52,074 nucleotides of DNA, taken from the NCBI GenBank assembly GCA_015521295.1, contig WAOL01000079.1, forward strand, positions 1 to 52,074, read 5' to 3'. This DNA comes from Desulfurococcales archaeon (GTDB taxonomy: Archaea > Thermoproteota > Thermoprotei_A > Sulfolobales > NBVN01). Each line of letters starts with the position of its first letter. The first letter of the stretch is position 1. Positions 1 to 47,756 of this stretch are shown here, piece by piece. The notes under the pieces were generated by a model. That model had not been told where the DNA came from. It worked only from the letters and a program-made list of their open reading frames with translations, and ran no database searches. A program made the translations under genes and the position numbers.

Positions 1-153
1 CCGTAAGGGGTAACCGCTGAAAGCATCTAAGCGGGAACCCCTCCCCGAAAAGAGGCGGCCGTTCGCCGGGGGAGACCTCGGCGACGAGGGCTCCCGTAGA
101 AGACGGGGTTGATGGGGCGGGGGTGTATGCCCGCCGCTCCCAATCGCCCGAGG
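1..153 (+). rRNA. rrl: 23S rRNA, 3' end (partial; exact 3' boundary approximate)
   Basis: Conserved LSU 3' motifs AACCGCTGAAAGCATCTAAGCGGGAA, GGGCTCCCGTAGAAGACGGGGTTGATGGGGCGG and CCCGCCGCTCCCAATCGCCCGAGG; no 5S downstream, as usual in crenarchaea. Confidence 0.95.
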
Positions 154-306
154 CTGACGCTCGCCCGAGGTGTTGGCTAGTGCGGTGCTGGTAGGGCCTA
201 TGCGTGGCGCGATTGATGCCCGTTGTATAGTTCTCGTCCTCTCTTGCTTAACACGCTTAGTTAACCTCATTTTCCTTGAGTACGTACTCTAAGCGGGTGT
301 CACGGC

Positions 307-30874: not shown

Positions 30875-30951
30875 TGGTGGACCGGCCGGGATTTGAACCC
30901 GGGGCCTCTCGGATGCCAACCGAGCGCTCTTCCAGGCTGAGCTACCGGCCC
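30875..30951 (-). tRNA. tRNA-Ala(GGC), intronless, CCA encoded
   Basis: GGGCCGGTAGCTCAGCCTGGAAGAGCGCTCGGTTGGCATCCGAGAGGCCCCGGGTTCAAATCCCGGCCGGTCCACCA; G3-U70 pair; TTATAAA about 25 nt upstream. Confidence 0.97.
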
Positions 30952-30980: not shown

Positions 30981-31499
30981 CTATTTCTTGGCTCTCCGTA
31001 AATACTCTAAGCAGAGTTCCCATATGTCGTCTCCGGCGTAGTGAAGGTTCTTGATGGCCCTTCCCCTCCTTACCTCCATTATTTCCTTGGAGTTCATGAG
31101 AGCTTCGCCAACAACTAACGGTGCTTTCTTGCTGGGGTTCCATACGGCAACTACTTCACCCTTGCTGAAGTCGCTTACCTCAGTTATGCCTGGGGCCATT
31201 ACGTTTGCTCCGTTCAGAAGGTGTTTTACTGCTCCCTCATCGACTACGGCGTAGTGCATTGAATTAACCCCCGCGATCTTAACTAGGACTAGGGTAGGGT
31301 AAGTAGCGTCTTCGTCGCCATACCTGAAGAGCGCCGGGATGTTGTTAAGCACTATGACCTCGAAGTCATCACCCTCAAGCCTGAATCCTTCCTTCCCCTC
31401 ACCTAAGTGCTTGCAGAGCCCGGGGTACTTCTCACAGGCTTTACCCCGAATCCGCACTACGTCCTTCCTCCTCAGCGGAAGCATTCTCACGAACATCAC
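30981..31499 (-). CDS. PUA-domain RNA-binding protein (DUF1947 / MCT-1-like)
   Basis: VVDEGAVKHLLNGANVMAPGI, GRAIKNLHYAGDDIW. Confidence 0.9.
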   Translation of the reverse strand: MMFVRMLPLRRKDVVRIRGKACEKYPGLCKHLGEGKEGFRLEGDDFEVIVLNNIPALFRYGDEDATYPTLVLVKIAGVNSMHYAVVDEGAVKHLLNGANVMAPGITEVSDFSKGEVVAVWNPSKKAPLVVGEALMNSKEIMEVRRGRAIKNLHYAGDDIWELCLEYLRRAKK

Positions 31500-42828: not shown

Positions 42829-42916
42829 GCGGGGGTGCCCGAGCCAGGTCAAAGGGGTCGGGCTGAGGCCCCGATGGCGGAGGCCTGCGTGGGTTCGAAT
42901 CCCACCCCCCGCACCA
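42829..42916 (+). tRNA. tRNA-Leu(GAG), intronless, long variable arm, CCA encoded
   Basis: GCGGGGGTGCCCGAGCCAGGTCAAAGGGGTCGGGCTGAGGCCCCGA...GTGGGTTCGAATCCCACCCCCCGCACCA. Confidence 0.97.
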
Positions 42917-44184: not shown

Positions 44185-45057
44185 TTAGGGGTTGAGCTCT
44201 ATTTCGTCGACTTTAAAGGATGCCGTACCGCCGTTCTTTAGTTCTAGGTTGATATAGCTGTAGTACCAGAGGCTCGGGCTTAACCTAGCTATCCCTACCT
44301 CCATTATCTTGGCGGAGGAGTTTGTGTCGTTTATGTTTTTGAGTGTGATTACGTAGCCTTCGTAGAGGTTCCCACTAACTTCAAGGGTGGTGTGTTTCAC
44401 GTTAGTTACTTCCCAGCCGTTTAGTGAGGTTGCGTATTTTCCGTTGGTGTCGAGGGTTATTGTGAGGTGCCCTAGGTTTCCAGTAGTTAGTAGATATGCG
44501 TTTAGTTGCTGCAGTATCATCATGCCGTACATGTTTGCCTGTGGTCCGACTAGGGTCTCACCGTTAGGCATCTGTAGCTTCAGCACACTGCTGTAGTTCT
44601 TGCTTATCCACAGTATCCCTGTTTCTGTTTCATTCTCTGATGATACGTTGAGTATCAGCTTCAAGGTATTTTCATTATTTATTGTTTCGCCGGGAACTAT
44701 GCTGAAGGATATTGAGACGTGGGTTCTTCCACCTGAAGAGTTCATCACGTCGACAGAGATCTTAACGTGCTTGAAGGTTGATAGGAGCTTATCAGGTGTG
44801 GAAAGATCTGTTAGGGATATTCTCTTACCTCCCTCCTCAGCAGTGCTGGCGGCTGCGGATGTTGTGTGTGTTTGTGTGGATGTGGTTGTTGACGTGGTGG
44901 GTGTTGCGGGCTGGGTTTGCGGGGTACTTGTTGTTGACGTTGAGGTGGTGGTTGCCGGTTTCCTCAGGATCAGTGGTTGATAATAGAGCGCGGCGGCGAT
45001 TGCCGCGCAGAGTGCTAACACAGCTATGATGAATATCGCTTTTCTCGTTCTAAACAC
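44185..45057 (-). CDS. Membrane-anchored surface protein with Thr/Ser-rich linker
   Basis: N-terminal hydrophobic helix, TTTTSTSTTST linker, many NxS/T sequons. Confidence 0.8.
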   Translation of the reverse strand: MFRTRKAIFIIAVLALCAAIAAALYYQPLILRKPATTTSTSTTSTPQTQPATPTTSTTTSTQTHTTSAAASTAEEGGKRISLTDLSTPDKLLSTFKHVKISVDVMNSSGGRTHVSISFSIVPGETINNENTLKLILNVSSENETETGILWISKNYSSVLKLQMPNGETLVGPQANMYGMMILQQLNAYLLTTGNLGHLTITLDTNGKYATSLNGWEVTNVKHTTLEVSGNLYEGYVITLKNINDTNSSAKIMEVGIARLSPSLWYYSYINLELKNGGTASFKVDEIELNP

Positions 45058-45121: not shown

Positions 45122-46600
45122 TTAACTTCTCTTCATGAATCTGAGTAAGCCGCCATCATGTTTGCTGGGTTTGCTCTCCTCCCTCTCGGGCTCCTCTCTT
45201 TGCTCTTCTTCCTTCTCCTCACCTTTATCTTTGCTCTCGTTAAGGACCTCCAGTACGGCGTTGAAGTTGTCCCTCACAGGCTTGTAGACCTTCTCGTAGA
45301 ATTTCCTTGGGTCAAGCAATACGTGCTTGGGGAACTTTCTGAGGTACTTTAGAGCTGCTTCCCACGCCTTCTCGTAAGGAACGACGCCCTCGATCTTCTC
45401 AGCGATCTGTCTGTCATAGTCTTCAGGCCTCTGCTCCTCCCCGCCCATTGTGAAGAACCCTGACGGTGCTTGAAACGCTTCTTCACCAGCCGCCTCGACG
45501 AGCTTAACGCCCTCCCTACCCTTAGAGGATGTCCTAGCACGTACTGAGGGGCTGACGCCGTAGGCTTTTCTCGCCGCGACCTGCCCTCTCTTCTTTGCCC
45601 ACGCGTAGAATATCGCCCTATTCAAGCCAAAGGATTTCGCCTTCTCTAAGTCGCCGTAGAGTAGGTAGTAACGTGCTGCCTGAAGTAGGCCCATGACCTG
45701 AAACCTCCCCACCCTCCTAGGTACGGGTCGAGGCTGAGGGGCTTTACGTGCCTTCCTAACGACAGCTTCAGGACTCGTAGCTATGGCGGCATGCCTCTTT
45801 GCTTTCAAGTCAATTTCTCTCAGTGCCTTCCTTAAGAGGTCATCCAGCTCGCCAACGTAGTGCTTGCCCCAGCATGGGTTATGCTTGAAGGAGCTCGGAT
45901 TAGTCCACTCCAACGTGAATGAGCTTAACTCGTCAGGCGTGAAGCATACGGCAACGCGATCCAGTTCCCTATGTAGTGAAAGTGGGGCGGTGAAGACCCG
46001 CTTAGCATCAACTAAGTTCTCAACCTTAACCTCACCCCCTGAACGCTTCGCGGCACCCTTTATGGTTTCGGAGCCTTTGCGGAGCACGTACTCAACTATC
46101 GCGAATGCCGCATCGACGGGTGTGATGCCCAGCTCCTCAAGAAGGTCATTACTTAACGCGTTTTCATTCACTCGAACATGCACACCCCTCCCACTCCACA
46201 GCAGGTACACGCTCTCAGAAACGCCTTCGCCCTCAAGAACCTTCACCACAGCCTCAGCCGCTGCTAGGGCAGCCCTCCACTCACCACTGACTAAGTCAAC
46301 GTCCCAGAAGGGTGTGTACTTCACGATGTTTCCCTCATGCTCAACGTCACCCTTGCTCCTAAGGGACCTCCATACAGCAGCCGTCACGTAAATGGTCCTA
46401 ACACCTATCCCGGAGTACCTAATGACCGTTGAAGAAACGTCCTCGGGCGATGTGAAGTGGAGGGGAACGTTATTCCTATACCTGATGAACACTCTCCCGC
46501 TCCCTAAGCGTCCCTCGAGCGCAGCCCACCTCATCCTAGAGTACCTGAATATCTCCTCTGCGACTTCACGCCTGAAGTAATGTTTCTTAACGTCAACCAT
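45122..46600 (-). CDS. AEP-superfamily primase-polymerase-like domain fused to an uncharacterised C-terminal domain
   Basis: FWDVD (motif I), WSGRGVHVR (motif II), NLVDAKRVFTAPLSLH (motif III); C-terminal GRFQVMGLLQAARYY..AKSFGLNRAIFYAWAK. Confidence 0.8.
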   Translation of the reverse strand: MVDVKKHYFRREVAEEIFRYSRMRWAALEGRLGSGRVFIRYRNNVPLHFTSPEDVSSTVIRYSGIGVRTIYVTAAVWRSLRSKGDVEHEGNIVKYTPFWDVDLVSGEWRAALAAAEAVVKVLEGEGVSESVYLLWSGRGVHVRVNENALSNDLLEELGITPVDAAFAIVEYVLRKGSETIKGAAKRSGGEVKVENLVDAKRVFTAPLSLHRELDRVAVCFTPDELSSFTLEWTNPSSFKHNPCWGKHYVGELDDLLRKALREIDLKAKRHAAIATSPEAVVRKARKAPQPRPVPRRVGRFQVMGLLQAARYYLLYGDLEKAKSFGLNRAIFYAWAKKRGQVAARKAYGVSPSVRARTSSKGREGVKLVEAAGEEAFQAPSGFFTMGGEEQRPEDYDRQIAEKIEGVVPYEKAWEAALKYLRKFPKHVLLDPRKFYEKVYKPVRDNFNAVLEVLNESKDKGEEKEEEQREEPEREESKPSKHDGGLLRFMKRS

Positions 46601-46746
46601 ACCTCATCCCCTAAGGAAAAAGCTGTACTCAGCATATAGGGAAAAATCGTGAGGCCCTTCCCCTAAGGGTATGGTAGCAGTTTCTGTTTTGTGGGTCTTT
46701 TAAGGTGTCTGTAGGTTTATTCTTGTTCTGAGGGTTATGTGGTGTG

Positions 46747-46753
46747 TTTATAA
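46747..46753 (+). promoter_or_regulatory. TATA box for the double K-turn RNA
   Basis: TTTATAA about 30 nt before the structured region. Confidence 0.55.
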
Positions 46754-46780
46754 GCTTTAACTGCTTATGGCTTTATTAGT

Positions 46781-46894
46781 GACCCCCTAGTTCCCGAGAC
46801 CTGCTCTCTGGTGGGCGGGGAGGGGCTAGGGGAAACCGTGATGAACCGACCTGCAGAGACCTAAAAGACCGTAGGCGGGGAACGGTAGGGAACA
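46781..46894 (+). ncRNA. Structured RNA with two tandem kink-turn hairpins
   Basis: HP1: 46784-94/46822-32 (11 bp), CGA bulge, GA/GA, 7-bp stem. HP2: ACCGT/ACGGT, GAT bulge, GA/GA, CCG/CGG, CCTGC/GTAGG, 16-nt loop. Ends GGGAACA. Confidence 0.7.
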
Positions 46895-46937
46895 TTGGTT
46901 AAATAGGTTAGAGAGGAAGGAAGCGTGGGTGCGTTAA

Positions 46938-47756
46938 ATGCTTGTTGAGCCTCCTGTCAAAGGTGTTGAGATAGGTATCATAGGTGGTAGTGGGCTTTAT
47001 GATCCTGAAGTAATTGAGGACGCTAAGGAATACAAGGTTTACACGCCCTATGGGCTTCCATCAGATAACCTCATAGTGGGTTGGCTCGCTGGAAGGAAAG
47101 TAGCTTTCCTACCAAGGCATGGGAGAGGGCATAAGATACCTCCCCACAGGATAAACTACAGGGCTAACATCTGGGCTCTCAAGAGCTTAGGCGTCAAGTG
47201 GGTCATAGCGGTCAGCGCGGTAGGGTCTCTAAGGGAAGATTACAGACCGGGGGACGTGGTGTTCCCTGATCAATTCATCGACATGACTAAGTCAAGGGAG
47301 TACACGTTCTTTGACGGTCCGGTAGTCGCGCACGTGAGTATGGCCGACCCCTTCTGCCTAACGTTAAGATCGATCCTAGCTAAGTCGGCGGAGTCGCTGG
47401 GCATAAGGTATCATGGTAAGGGCACGTACGTATGTATAGAGGGACCAAGGTTCTCTACCCGGGCCGAGTCGAGGATTTGGAAGGAGGTCTTTAAGGCAGA
47501 CATAATAGGGATGACGTTAGTGCCTGAGATAAACTTAGCTAGGGAAGCTGGCATGCACTACGCCACAATAGCGTTGGTGACGGACTACGATGTATGGGCA
47601 GACCACCCAGTAACGGCTGAGGAGGTTGCCCGGGTAATGGCAGAGAACGTAGCTAAGGCTAAGAAACTAATCCTTGACGCAGTACCGAAAATCCCAAGGG
47701 AAGGAGAGAAGGTGGGATGCGCTTGCGAGGAGAGTCTGAAGAACGCGCTGGTGTAG
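46938..47756 (+). CDS. mtnP: S-methyl-5'-thioadenosine phosphorylase
   Basis: [37 protein letters not shown]. Confidence 0.96.

What the first reader, a model, noticed from the sequence alone, without database searches (positions are those of the whole stretch)
46747..46894. Promoter-bearing ncRNA made of two canonical K-turn hairpins
Seen: TTTATAA box, then hairpin 1 (CCCCTAGTTCC/GGGGCTAGGGG, 3-nt bulge, tandem GA/AG, 7-bp stem) and hairpin 2 (ACCGT/ACGGT, GAT bulge, GA/AG plus A.G, stems, 16-nt loop AGAGACCTAAAAGACC). The motif (G/A)AGACC occurs three times. GTTCCC (46790-95) could alternatively pair with GGGAAC at 46878 or 46888. HP1 is followed by AAA and HP2 by GGGAACA. Known: such K-turns bind L7Ae. 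It fits neither C/D nor a canonical H/ACA RNA (no bipartite pockets), nor SRP, RNase P or 5S. Inference: an undescribed L7Ae-bound RNA. It could be a switchable leader for mtnP (MTA/SAM sensing), an atypical H/ACA-like RNA, or a partner of the divergent AEP protein.
Basis: partly seen in the sequence, partly recalled or inferred. Interest (0 to 1): 0.8.

Follow-up and report, generated by a model that had tools for sequence, protein, structure and literature searches.

The report
Transposon-borne guide-like RNA with K-turn
The two-hairpin RNA is real and conserved, but it is the outward-reading RNA gene at the end of a small mobile element derived from a TnpB-type transposon, most likely that transposon's guide RNA rather than a cellular L7Ae RNA or a leader of the neighbouring gene.

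Summary
The two hairpins are strongly supported by covariation, and Rfam has no match.

The RNA (46777-46886, +) is not a cellular sRNA. It is the right-hand part of a 216-bp insertion (46671-46886). Three congeners have the same intergenic region without it.

The insertion is an internal-deletion (MITE-like) derivative of a ~1.3-kb element. That element carries a 375-aa gene on the opposite strand. The protein has a Cas12f/TnpB fold (Foldseek E 3e-10) and a conserved D/E/D triad.

In 70 of 80 public Thermoproteota loci that encode this protein, the RNA gene lies divergently upstream, mostly 36-72 nt away. A TATA hexamer sits 28-31 nt before it.

Conservation stops exactly at AACGGT|, where a variable flank begins. 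The other end abuts a conserved ..GGGT. This is the geometry of a TnpB guide (omega) RNA with its TAM.

Hairpin 2 keeps a K-turn signature in 50-65 of 72 copies; hairpin 1 does not do so consistently.

Guide function and L7Ae binding are inferred, not shown. The mtnP-leader, H/ACA and AEP-partner readings are rejected.

The parts
46665..46670 (+). Left flank AAGGGT: conserved target-site / TAM-like motif (..GGGT) abutting the insertion
   Evidence: The empty site in three congeners reads ..CAGAGGT|AGGGAAT... The same R-G-G-G-T type flank precedes 9 of 9 aligned copies in G034/G023 and 4 of 4 full-length elements. The last 3 nt (GGT) are also the last 3 nt of the insertion, so the exact junction is ambiguous by 3 nt.
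46671..46886 (.). 216-bp MITE-like insertion: an internal-deletion derivative of a ~1.3-kb TnpB-family element
   Evidence: Presence/absence against G001:C87, G005:C154 and G002:C157. Two blocks of homology to full-length elements: 46666-46729 and 46770-46886, with ~1.1 kb missing between them.
46671..46729 (.). Left-end module: ~30-nt element end plus a remnant of the 3' end (antisense) of the TnpB-like gene
   Evidence: 84% identity over 70 nt to the left end of the full-length copy G000:C72 (L068), and 77-86% to L118, L121, L127 and L136. The left end of full-length elements was defined.
46747..46753 (+). TATA box (TTTATAA) of the RNA gene, 30 nt before the model start
   Evidence: A TATA-like hexamer starts 28-31 nt upstream of the RNA in 61 of 69 protein-adjacent homologues, against 0-3 of 60-69 at shifted control positions.
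46777..46886 (+). Structured RNA scaffold (110 nt): conserved 5' UAGUGAC, HP1, AA linker and HP2, ending ..GGAACGGU at the element end
   Evidence: Covariance model R1: 101.4 bits, E 2.5e-25. Covariation. No Rfam match.
46784..46832 (+). Hairpin 1, with a K-turn-like internal loop (CGA-GA / GA)
   Evidence: Helices 1-2 have 17 of 17 pairs with changes on both sides. The loop is GAGA/GA in 31 of 72 copies and of other kinds in the rest.
46835..46886 (+). Hairpin 2 with a K-turn signature: bulge GAU 46840-42, GA 46843-44, facing GA 46880-81, with C-stem ACCGU/ACGGU
   Evidence: 5' NNN-GA-N facing ..GA in 50 of 72 copies, or ..RA in 65 of 72. Helices 3-5 are paired in 91-96% of cells.
46887..46906 (+). 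Flank directly 3' of the scaffold: putative guide segment if the transcript reads out (length assumed; inferred only)
   Evidence: All similarity among copies stops at 46886. The first 12 flank positions show no base preference in 71 homologues. No transcript data are available.

Best explanation
The finding is the RNA gene of a non-autonomous, MITE-like element (46671-46886). That element descends by internal deletion from a ~1.3-kb IS200/IS605-like, TnpB-only transposon that is widespread in Thermoproteota.

The parent element has this order:
- a left end that abuts a conserved ..GGGT target;
- a 375-aa TnpB/Cas12f-fold nuclease gene on the minus strand;
- a ~60-nt bidirectional promoter region;
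- on the plus strand, an independently transcribed ~95-165-nt RNA of two hairpins whose scaffold ends exactly at the right end (..AACGGT|).

Proposed mechanism:
- Transcription from the TATA box runs through the scaffold into the flanking DNA, which gives each copy its own 3' guide.
- The TnpB-like protein binds the scaffold and would cut DNA that carries the ..GGGT motif followed by that flank. This is the joint left when the element is lost, as for TnpB omega-RNAs.
- The K-turn in hairpin 2, next to the guide, probably kinks the scaffold and may be clamped by host L7Ae.

Shown: mobility, the deletion origin, the RNA structure, the promoter, the RNA-protein gene linkage, the protein fold and the boundary geometry.
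Inferred: read-out transcription, guide function, nuclease activity and L7Ae binding.

This particular copy may be an orphan. The genome holds only one TnpB-like gene of the family, and it belongs to a different sub-family, with a short-form RNA.
For: Mobility
- Three congeners have the orthologous intergenic region without the 216 bp. Empty site ..AGAGGT|AGGGAAT..; filled site ..AAGGGT[..AACGGT]AGGGAAC...
- Near-identical copies in G034/G023 share both boundaries but not their flanks.
- R1 finds 6 copies in the own genome, up to 18 in a relative, and at least one in 30 of 61 genomes.

Deletion derivative
- Two homology blocks to full-length elements. The full-length own-genome copy G000:C72 is 1315 bp.

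Protein
- Weak sequence hits to guided_TnpB (3.2e-5, below cut-off), Cas12f2 and PF07282. The best matches of a profile against PDB sequences are Cas12f, E ~0.1.
- AlphaFold model with pLDDT 85.5. The top 11 Foldseek PDB hits are Cas12f or Cas12k, E 3e-10 to 1e-6.
- D220 and E284 are invariant and D355 nearly so.
- Sources name some homologues 'transposase, IS605 OrfB family'.

Linkage
- The RNA lies on the opposite strand upstream of the gene in 70 of 80 public loci. Five of the 10 misses have under 100 nt upstream. The gap is 36-72 nt in 67 of 69.
- Among 61 relatives, 22 have both RNA and protein, 8 RNA only, 3 protein only and 28 neither.
- A bona fide TnpB (PF01385 79.8 bits, PF07282 51.9 bits) in G006 has the same RNA divergently upstream in 2 copies.

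RNA-level structure
- Covariation. By my sum of the table, 275 of 2160 pair cells are G.U, which would be A.C mismatches on the other strand.
- TATA at -28 to -31 in 61 of 69.

Guide geometry
- The scaffold ends at the element end, the flank is variable, and there is a conserved G-rich motif at the other end.
- No conserved structure is found at the TnpB-sense 3' end, where canonical omega-RNAs lie.
Against: - No transcript data exist. No RNA run was listed, so the start, the end and any read-out into the flank are all unobserved.
- The RNA is divergent from the nuclease gene. Described TnpB omega-RNAs overlap the 3' end of tnpB on the same strand (passages in PMC12817955).
- The protein fails the Pfam and NCBIfam cut-offs and lacks the zinc ribbon.
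- No transposase was found: no Y1 TnpA and no serine recombinase in G000, and neither in G034 with 18 copies (89% complete). The transposition mechanism is therefore unassigned.
- No clear hairpin was seen by eye at the left end.
- The conserved hairpins could serve as single-stranded-DNA end structures rather than, or as well as, RNA.
- The 3-nt junction ambiguity (GGT) also fits a 3-bp duplication or a GG crossover.
- The cognate long-form sub-family protein is missing from this genome and is a pseudogene in congener G005.
- The RNA alignments used for covariation were fitted to the model, and related genomes are not independent.
Confidence: 0.6

Rival explanations
1. The conserved hairpins are mainly transposon-end DNA or regulatory structures, not a guide. 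They would be right-end single-strand DNA hairpins and repeated RAGACC sites bound by an unidentified transposase. Alternatively, the RNA regulates transposition or the divergent nuclease gene, through promoter competition or antisense or titration effects.
For: - IS200/IS605 ends are recognised as DNA hairpins (established knowledge, recalled).
- A ~23-nt stretch of HP2 including its loop recurs inverted near the left end. The alignment scores 32, against a maximum of 27-28 in 300 shuffles, in 2 of 5 elements tested.
- RAGACC occurs three times in the RNA, and GGTCT-type motifs recur at the left end.
- The RNA promoter is back-to-back with the nuclease gene's start.
Against: - The ~100 nt of covarying structure far exceeds a transposase hairpin.
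- Conserved U.G pairs make the fold specific to the + strand.
- A positioned TATA box is kept even in MITEs that have lost the nuclease gene.
- The protein partner has the fold of RNA-guided nucleases.
- The inverted similarity is weak in 3 of the 5 elements tested.
Confidence: 0.2
2. This copy, and perhaps many solo copies, is a decaying relic with no present function. The promoter and fold persist only because the insertion is recent.
For: - The own genome lacks the cognate long-form sub-family protein. Its only family member, C72, is 51% identical to that sub-family and pairs with a short-form RNA.
- The G005:C106 partner gene carries 5 stop codons.
- Other own-genome copies (C39, C65) show damaged K-turn or TATA positions.
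- No transposase was found in G000.
Against: - The window copy keeps 28 of 32 model pairs, the TATA box and both loops intact.
- Solo copies are kept in 8 genomes where no protein was found. That fits trans use as well as decay.
- This reading concerns this one copy. It does not change what the family is.
Confidence: 0.15
3. One reading: a cellular L7Ae-bound sRNA. It would be an atypical H/ACA-like guide, a SAM/MTA-sensing leader of mtnP, or a partner of the divergent 492-aa ORF.
For: - K-turn signature in HP2.
- The RNA lies 52 nt upstream of the mtnP-like gene (PNP_UDP_1) and reads towards it.
- No Rfam family matches.
Against: - The orthologous loci in three congeners lack it.
- Copies are scattered beside unrelated genes.
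- There is no pseudouridylation pocket, and the ACA lies in non-conserved flank.
- There is a C box-like GUGAUGA but no D box.
- The 492-aa ORF is unrelated to the neighbours of other copies.
- mtnP keeps a TTAAATA box of its own downstream of the insertion.
Confidence: 0.03

Closest known systems
TnpB omega-RNA (reRNA) of IS200/IS605-family transposons (OMEGA systems, e.g. ISDra2; recalled, and as described in passages of PMC12817955 and PMC10691335)
   Same: - The RNA is encoded inside a TnpB-bearing transposon.
- The conserved scaffold ends flush with one transposon end and is followed by variable flank, the would-be guide.
- A conserved short motif abuts the opposite end (TAM-like).
- The protein has a RuvC D/E/D triad and a Cas12f/TnpB fold.
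- Non-autonomous copies keep the RNA.
   Different: - The RNA gene has its own TATA promoter and is transcribed divergently from the nuclease gene. It does not overlap the gene's 3' end.
- The nuclease gene points towards the TAM-side end.
- The scaffold is two hairpins with a K-turn signature, and no pseudoknot was identified.
- The protein is 375 aa, has no zinc ribbon and falls below the Pfam/NCBIfam cut-offs.
- The flanking motif is G-rich (..GGGT).
- The function is untested.
MITE/PATE-type non-autonomous derivatives of insertion sequences
   Same: - A short element (216 bp) that keeps both ends of a longer parent.
- Multi-copy, with insertion polymorphism between close relatives.
   Different: - No terminal inverted repeats, and no clear target duplication (at most the 3-nt GGT ambiguity).
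- It carries a complete promoter plus a structured RNA gene.
Archaeal K-turn RNAs bound by L7Ae (box C/D and H/ACA sRNAs, RNase P and SRP RNAs, and the l7ae 5' UTR; passages of PMC5539422 read)
   Same: HP2 has a C-stem, a 3-nt bulge, G.A/A.G (or A.A) and an NC-stem. The 5' side reads GUGAUGA like a C box.
   Different: - No D box, no guide-flanked C'/D' motifs, no H/ACA pocket and no ACA box.
- It is mobile and linked to a nuclease gene.
- L7Ae binding was not tested.
Cas12f (type V-F) effector with tracrRNA/crRNA
   Same: These are the best structural matches of the protein. Cas12f is also a small RuvC nuclease that depends on a separately encoded structured RNA.
   Different: - No CRISPR array and no adaptation genes.
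- Transposon context.
- A single RNA with a fixed, flank-derived 3' segment.

Membership tests
Kink-turn (K-turn) motif | Canonical stem, 3-nt bulge, tandem sheared G.A / A.G, then a non-canonical stem | tested here: met
   HP2 in the window reads ACCGU-GAU-GA-A.. / ..G-GA-ACGGU. Among relatives, 50 of 72 copies match strictly and 65 of 72 match if 2n may be A. This is a sequence pattern only; no 3D test was made.
Kink-turn (K-turn) motif | The same motif in hairpin 1 | tested here: inconclusive
   The window has CGA-GA / GA only if the closing C-G pair is opened. The MFE fold gives a 4x2 loop. 35 of 72 relatives have NNGA/..GA, and others have U at the 1b position (GUUA, GAUA).
L7Ae-bound RNA | Binding by L7Ae | not testable with these tools
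   No binding assay or RIP data exist for this organism. The RIP-seq paper PMC5539422 has no occurrence of 'transpos', 'IS200', 'orfB' or 'mobile' in its main text.
Box C/D sRNA | C box RUGAUGA plus D box CUGA (and C'/D') flanking 10-12-nt guides | tested here: not met
   GUGAUGA is present at 46838-44, but there is no CUGA partner and the 3' side is GGGA. No Rfam C/D family matches even at E<=10.
H/ACA sRNA | Lower stem, pseudouridylation pocket, upper stem with K-turn, and an ACA box ~14 nt from the pocket | tested here: not met
   There is no internal pocket in either hairpin. The ACA at 46892-94 is in flank, which is variable among copies and reads AAT at the empty sites. No Rfam hit.
TnpB omega-RNA (OMEGA system) | RNA encoded in the same transposon as a TnpB-type nuclease gene | tested here: met
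   70 of 80 loci. The own-genome full-length copy is G000:C72. The geometry differs from the described one: it is divergent, not 3'-overlapping. The window copy itself has lost the gene.
TnpB omega-RNA (OMEGA system) | Scaffold ends at the transposon end, with the guide transcribed from the flank | tested here: inconclusive
   The boundary coincidence is shown. Transcription into the flank is not observable, because no RNA run was listed.
TnpB omega-RNA (OMEGA system) | Conserved transposon-adjacent motif at the opposite end | tested here: met
   A ..GGGT-type flank in 9 of 9 and 4 of 4 aligned copies and in the window. Other sub-families show GGG(G). Further copies were read by eye only.
TnpB omega-RNA (OMEGA system) | RNA-guided DNA cleavage by the protein | not testable with these tools
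   This needs biochemistry.
TnpB / Cas12 RuvC nuclease (the protein partner) | Bilobed WED/REC + RuvC fold with a D-E-D triad | tested here: met
   Foldseek against Cas12f1 7c7l, E 3e-10, TMq 0.52. D220 and E284 are invariant and D355 nearly so.
TnpB / Cas12 RuvC nuclease (the protein partner) | Passes the curated family models (PF01385, PF07282, NF040570) and has the zinc ribbon | tested here: not met
   No Pfam hit. NF040570 scores 23.4 bits against a cut-off of 100, and PF07282 scores 20.4 against 26.3. No Cys4 motif appears in the alignment. Homologues carry PF27229, which I could not open.
IS200/IS605-family transposon | No inverted terminal repeats, no target duplication, insertion 3' of a short specific sequence | tested here: inconclusive
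   No terminal inverted repeats, and a conserved ..GGGT at the left junction. GGT is shared by both junctions, so a 3-bp duplication or a GG crossover cannot be excluded.
IS200/IS605-family transposon | Y1 (HUH) TnpA transposase, in cis or in trans | tested here: not met
   PF01797 gives 0 matches in G000 (98.4% complete). It was found in 2 of 5 relatives (G006, G015), but not beside these elements. A serine recombinase was found in 3 of 5, and there it sits beside canonical TnpBs.

The most novel reading that the evidence does not exclude
A lineage of TnpB transposons across the Thermoproteota has split the guide RNA from the nuclease gene. A compact, zinc-ribbon-less 375-aa RuvC nuclease would use an independently promoted, divergently transcribed ~100-nt RNA. 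The guide-proximal hairpin of that RNA is a K-turn clamped by the host protein L7Ae. The result would be a three-component (TnpB + RNA + L7Ae) RNA-guided nuclease that is hyperthermophile-adapted and recognises a G-rich ..GGGT motif. Solo MITE copies such as the one in this window would then act as extra guide genes used in trans.
Probability: 0.25. Interest if true: 0.8.

Novelty: new variant of a known kind. Interest (0 to 1): 0.62.

Why it matters
If the RNA is the guide, two things follow.
- TnpB systems need not carve their guide out of their own mRNA. A stand-alone RNA gene with its own promoter is a step towards the separate tracr/crRNA genes of type V CRISPR systems.
- A host RNA-architecture protein (L7Ae) may have been recruited into a transposon RNP.

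It would also offer a very small thermostable nuclease with a short two-hairpin scaffold and an unusual G-rich flanking motif.

For genome annotation, it explains a family of more than 100 'orphan' structured RNA genes in Desulfurococcales and their relatives. These could otherwise be mistaken for cellular sRNAs or riboswitch-like leaders.

Tried and rejected
Rfam: gathering scan of the whole window, and an E<=10 scan of 46600-46940. The only match was a chance mir-965 hit at E 6.4 on the other strand.

RNAalifold on a raw MAFFT alignment of 17 copies gave almost no structure. That alignment mixed length classes. I replaced it with a hand-set structure, checked row by row, and with model-based alignments.

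Linkage to the 492-aa ORF: the neighbours of the other own-genome copies are unrelated to it. I rejected this link.

mtnP leader: rejected by the empty sites.

Canonical omega-RNA at the 3' end of the TnpB-like gene: 13 elements gave no conserved structure (-0.14 kcal/mol, 2 invariant pairs). This is a weak negative, because it rests on MAFFT plus RNAalifold only.

Terminal inverted repeats: none at the termini. A sub-terminal inverted similarity exceeds all 300 shuffles in only 2 of 5 elements.

Target duplication: 9 G034/G023 copies, read by eye, show no consistent repeat beyond GGT. One own-genome copy (C87) has the same 8 nt after GGT on both sides, which is unexplained.

Transposase: Y1 and serine recombinase searches found none linked to the element.

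Expression: no RNA holder was listed by the look-up of sequencing runs.

Plasmid and phage collections searched with the protein: 4 weak plasmid hits at 25% identity, one annotated as TnpB-related, and no phage hit.

Sequence search of the 492-aa ORF against PDB chains: no match.

Literature:
- Six searches found no paper linking TnpB with K-turns or L7Ae, or describing a divergently encoded omega-RNA gene.
- I read only search listings, abstract starts and 'find' passages of PMC10691335, PMC5539422, PMC12558985 and PMC12817955.
- The library lacks most subscription journals, and supplements were closed. The supplementary clade tables of PMC10691335 may already list this TnpB branch.
Full report
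**What is there.** The finding lies in the 337-nt spacer between two genes.
- Upstream is a 492-aa ORF (45122-46600, minus strand) with no Pfam, NCBIfam or PDB sequence match.
- Downstream is a PNP_UDP_1 phosphorylase gene, the mtnP-like gene (46938-47756, plus strand).

- TTTATAA at 46747-53.
- Hairpin 1 at 46784-46832.
- Hairpin 2 at 46835-46886.
- Three RAGACC motifs.
- AAA after HP1 and GGGAACA after HP2.

The + strand folds into exactly these two hairpins (-49.4 kcal/mol, z -1.99). The - strand folds worse (-38.0, z -0.66). Rfam has nothing, either at gathering thresholds over the whole window or at E<=10 over the spacer.

**It is a repeated, mobile unit.**
- A DNA search of the own genome and 60 relatives found many partial copies whose similarity always stops at ..AACGGT.
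- Nine near-identical copies in two genomes (G034, G023) share about 235 nt. The shared stretch runs from just after a flanking RGGGT to AACGGT, and the DNA on both sides is unrelated.
- Three congeners (G001:C87, G005:C154, G002:C157) carry the same 492-aa-ORF/mtnP spacer without the unit. They read ..CAGAGGT|AGGGAAT.., where the window reads ..AAGGGT[216 bp ..AACGGT]AGGGAAC...
- The insertion is therefore 46671-46886, with a 3-nt (GGT) ambiguity at the junction.
- The 'alternative partner' GGGAAC at 46888 and the ACA at 46892 are ordinary flank.
- mtnP keeps its own TTAAATA box downstream of the insertion.
- Neighbours of other copies are housekeeping genes of many kinds: DNA ligase, Sua5, an XPB-type helicase, an aminotransferase and a radical-SAM gene.

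**What it derives from.**
- One own-genome copy (G000:C72) lies 64 nt from the start of a divergent 375-aa ORF, and the same pair recurs in other genomes.
- Aligning four such loci shows that the element's left end lies about 30 nt beyond the ORF's stop codon and again follows ..AGGGT.
- The full element in C72 is 1315 bp.
- The window unit matches full-length elements in two blocks: 46666-46729 (left end plus the last codons of the ORF, antisense) and 46770-46886 (the RNA). About 1.1 kb is missing between them.
- It is therefore an internal-deletion, MITE-like derivative.

**The protein.**
- Sequence models barely see it. There is no Pfam hit. NCBIfam guided_TnpB gives 3.2e-5, far below its cut-off, and Cas12f2 gives 1.3e-3. 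PF07282 gives 8e-4.
- A 13-member profile finds Cas12f chains as its only PDB sequence matches, at E ~0.1.
- The alignment has invariant D220 (GVDVN) and E284 (LENPE), a nearly invariant D355 (GLDxH), and no Cys4 zinc ribbon.
- An AlphaFold model (pLDDT 85.5, pTM 0.77) matches Cas12f1, AsCas12f, SpCas12f1 and Cas12k over its whole length (Foldseek E 3e-10 to 1e-7, TMq 0.47-0.55).
- In the large protein database all 120 listed homologues carry PF27229, which I could not open. A few are named 'transposase' or 'transposase, IS605 OrfB family'.
- In relatives the gene is multi-copy and often broken by stop codons, as expected of a transposon gene.

**The RNA and the protein travel together.**
- I built a covariance model (R1) from 21 copies with a hand-set structure.
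- R1 finds the RNA in 30 of 61 related genomes, and the protein search finds the gene in 25 of 61. Of these, 22 have both, 8 RNA only, 3 protein only and 28 neither. Related genomes are not independent, so no test is attached.
- A scan of one genome per species found 216 relatives of the protein, and 80 loci were kept. They come from Desulfurococcaceae, Pyrodictiaceae, Acidilobaceae, Ignisphaera, Zestosphaera, Aeropyrum, Thermoproteaceae, Vulcanisaeta, Caldivirga, a Sulfolobales MAG and a Thermococcus MAG.
- R1 hits the strand opposite the gene in 70 of these 80 loci. Of the 10 misses, 5 have fewer than 100 nt upstream of the protein match.
- The RNA's 5' end lies 36-72 nt from the start of the protein match in 67 of 69 loci. 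The two exceptions have a second, inverted RNA copy inserted in between.
- A TATA-like hexamer starts 28-31 nt before the RNA in 61 of 69 loci, against 0-3 of 60-69 at positions shifted by 200-800 nt. In the window it starts 30 nt before.
- RNA length classes (about 95, 110, 130 and 160 nt) appear to go with protein sub-families.
- A 459-aa protein in G006 that passes PF01385 and PF07282 has the same RNA divergently upstream in two copies. It aligns to the 375-aa family profile with 87.6% probability. This ties the RNA family to bona fide TnpB.

**The fold is real and belongs to the + strand.**
- On 72 protein-adjacent homologues, 94.4% of 2160 pair cells are standard pairs, against 34-55% when partners are slid.
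- 30 of 32 pairs change on both sides, 504 cells show double changes (shuffles average 143), and 0 of 500 shuffles reach any observed measure.
- The 59 copies from relatives give 88.8% paired and 29 of 32 pairs.
- By my sum of the table, 275 cells are G.U. They concentrate in HP1's lower stem and would be A.C mismatches on the other strand.
- These alignments are fitted to the model, which inflates the paired percentages. The slid and shuffle controls use the same alignments.

**K-turns.**
- HP2's loop reads NNN-GA-N facing ..GA in 50 of 72 copies and ..RA in 65 of 72. The variants with A at 2n imply an A.A pair at 2b.2n; from memory, rare natural K-turns have this.
- HP1 is less convincing. 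Its loop is 4x2: GAGA/GA in 31 of 72 copies, and GAUA, GUUA, AAGA and others elsewhere. It fits the K-turn consensus only if the closing C-G pair opens.
- I therefore regard HP2 as a conserved K-turn candidate and HP1 as uncertain. L7Ae binding is an inference.

**How it most likely works.** The geometry is that of a TnpB guide RNA.
- A conserved scaffold ends precisely at one transposon end.
- It is followed by copy-specific flank with no base preference over 12 positions in 71 copies.
- A conserved short motif (..GGGT, or GGG(G) in more distant sub-families) abuts the other end.
- After loss of the element, that motif would sit directly 5' of the flank that the RNA's tail matches. This is the arrangement TnpB uses (established for IS200/IS605 TnpB; recalled).

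What differs is the layout.
- The nuclease gene is inverted and points to the motif-side end, so its mRNA cannot supply the guide. A separate promoter-driven RNA gene at the far end does so instead.
- Consistently, the TnpB-sense 3' end shows no conserved structure in 13 elements (a weak negative).

Not shown: the transcript itself (no RNA run was listed), binding, and cleavage.

The transposase is also unknown. G000 has no Y1 TnpA and no serine recombinase. Those found in some relatives sit elsewhere or beside canonical TnpBs.

**This copy.**
- The window RNA is of the long form. Its cognate protein sub-family (about 50% identical to the C72 protein) is absent from this 98.4%-complete genome and is a pseudogene beside the closest RNA relative in G005.
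- The copy keeps its TATA box, 28 of 32 model pairs and both loops.
- It may be served in trans by the C72 protein, or it may be a relic.
- Its promoter points at mtnP with no T-stretch in between, so read-through into mtnP is possible but untested.

**Comparison and novelty.**
- The kind (a transposon-encoded TnpB with a guide RNA, and its MITEs) is known.
- I did not find the variant described: a stand-alone, divergently transcribed guide-RNA gene with a conserved K-turn, partnered with a zinc-ribbon-less 375-aa TnpB-like protein.
- The evidence for that absence is six full-text searches and passages of four papers. One passage states that omega-RNAs overlap the 3' end of tnpB (PMC12817955).

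**Verdict.** I rate it a new variant of a known kind, with interest 0.62.

Noticed in passing
By eye it has DVD and SGRGVHV-like motifs. It is conserved beside mtnP in three congeners that lack the insertion. The AEP label is unverified.
   Followed up: partly
window 46694-46716 versus 46849-46870; also L041: A ~23-nt stretch of HP2 (upper stem 5' side plus loop) recurs inverted near the left end of the element: 21 matched bases in 23 alignment columns (one mismatch, one gap) in the window. The alignment scores 32, against a maximum of 27-28 in 300 shuffles, in 2 of 5 elements tested. It may be a binding site shared by the two ends.
   Followed up: partly
L189 (G000:C87:18300-19100): In this own-genome copy the same 8 nt follow GGT at both the left and the right junction, and about 17 extra nt lie before the usual left-end motif. 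It could be a target duplication, a rearrangement or chance.
   Followed up: no
window 46660-46670 versus L068 left flank: The DNA just outside the left end is alike in the window and in the unrelated C72 locus (CCCCTAAGGGT versus CCCCTGAGGGT). The target may be longer than GGGT, or palindromic.
   Followed up: no
L184, L185 (G006:C2:183600-186200; G006:C13:300-2600): A canonical 459-aa TnpB (PF01385 + PF07282) also has an R1-type RNA of about 160 nt divergently upstream, with a gap of about 145-150 nt, in two copies. The divergent RNA is therefore not confined to the zinc-ribbon-less proteins.
   Followed up: partly
L124 1182-1477; L135 1125-1405: Two R1 matches lie back to back on opposite strands upstream of the nuclease gene. 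This looks like one element inserted next to another's RNA gene.
   Followed up: no
proteins P0003-P0122: All 120 listed homologues of the 375-aa protein carry the precomputed Pfam family PF27229, which is missing from the local Pfam copy. Its description might already name the family.
   Followed up: partly
G023, G034: These genomes have 15 and 18 R1 matches, many near-identical. No Y1 TnpA was found in either, and no serine recombinase in G034. G023 gave no match to the 375-aa protein. Both assemblies are only 87-89% complete.
   Followed up: partly
window 1-163; 30878-30951 (-); 42829-42913 (+): The 3' end of the archaeal 23S rRNA and two tRNA genes. A weak R1 match at 31057-31143 (-), E 0.61, next to the first tRNA is probably chance.
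   Followed up: no
window 44185-45057 (-): This 290-aa ORF has a below-cut-off Pfam match to PF21827 'New_glue' (23.1 bits against a cut-off of 31).
   Followed up: no
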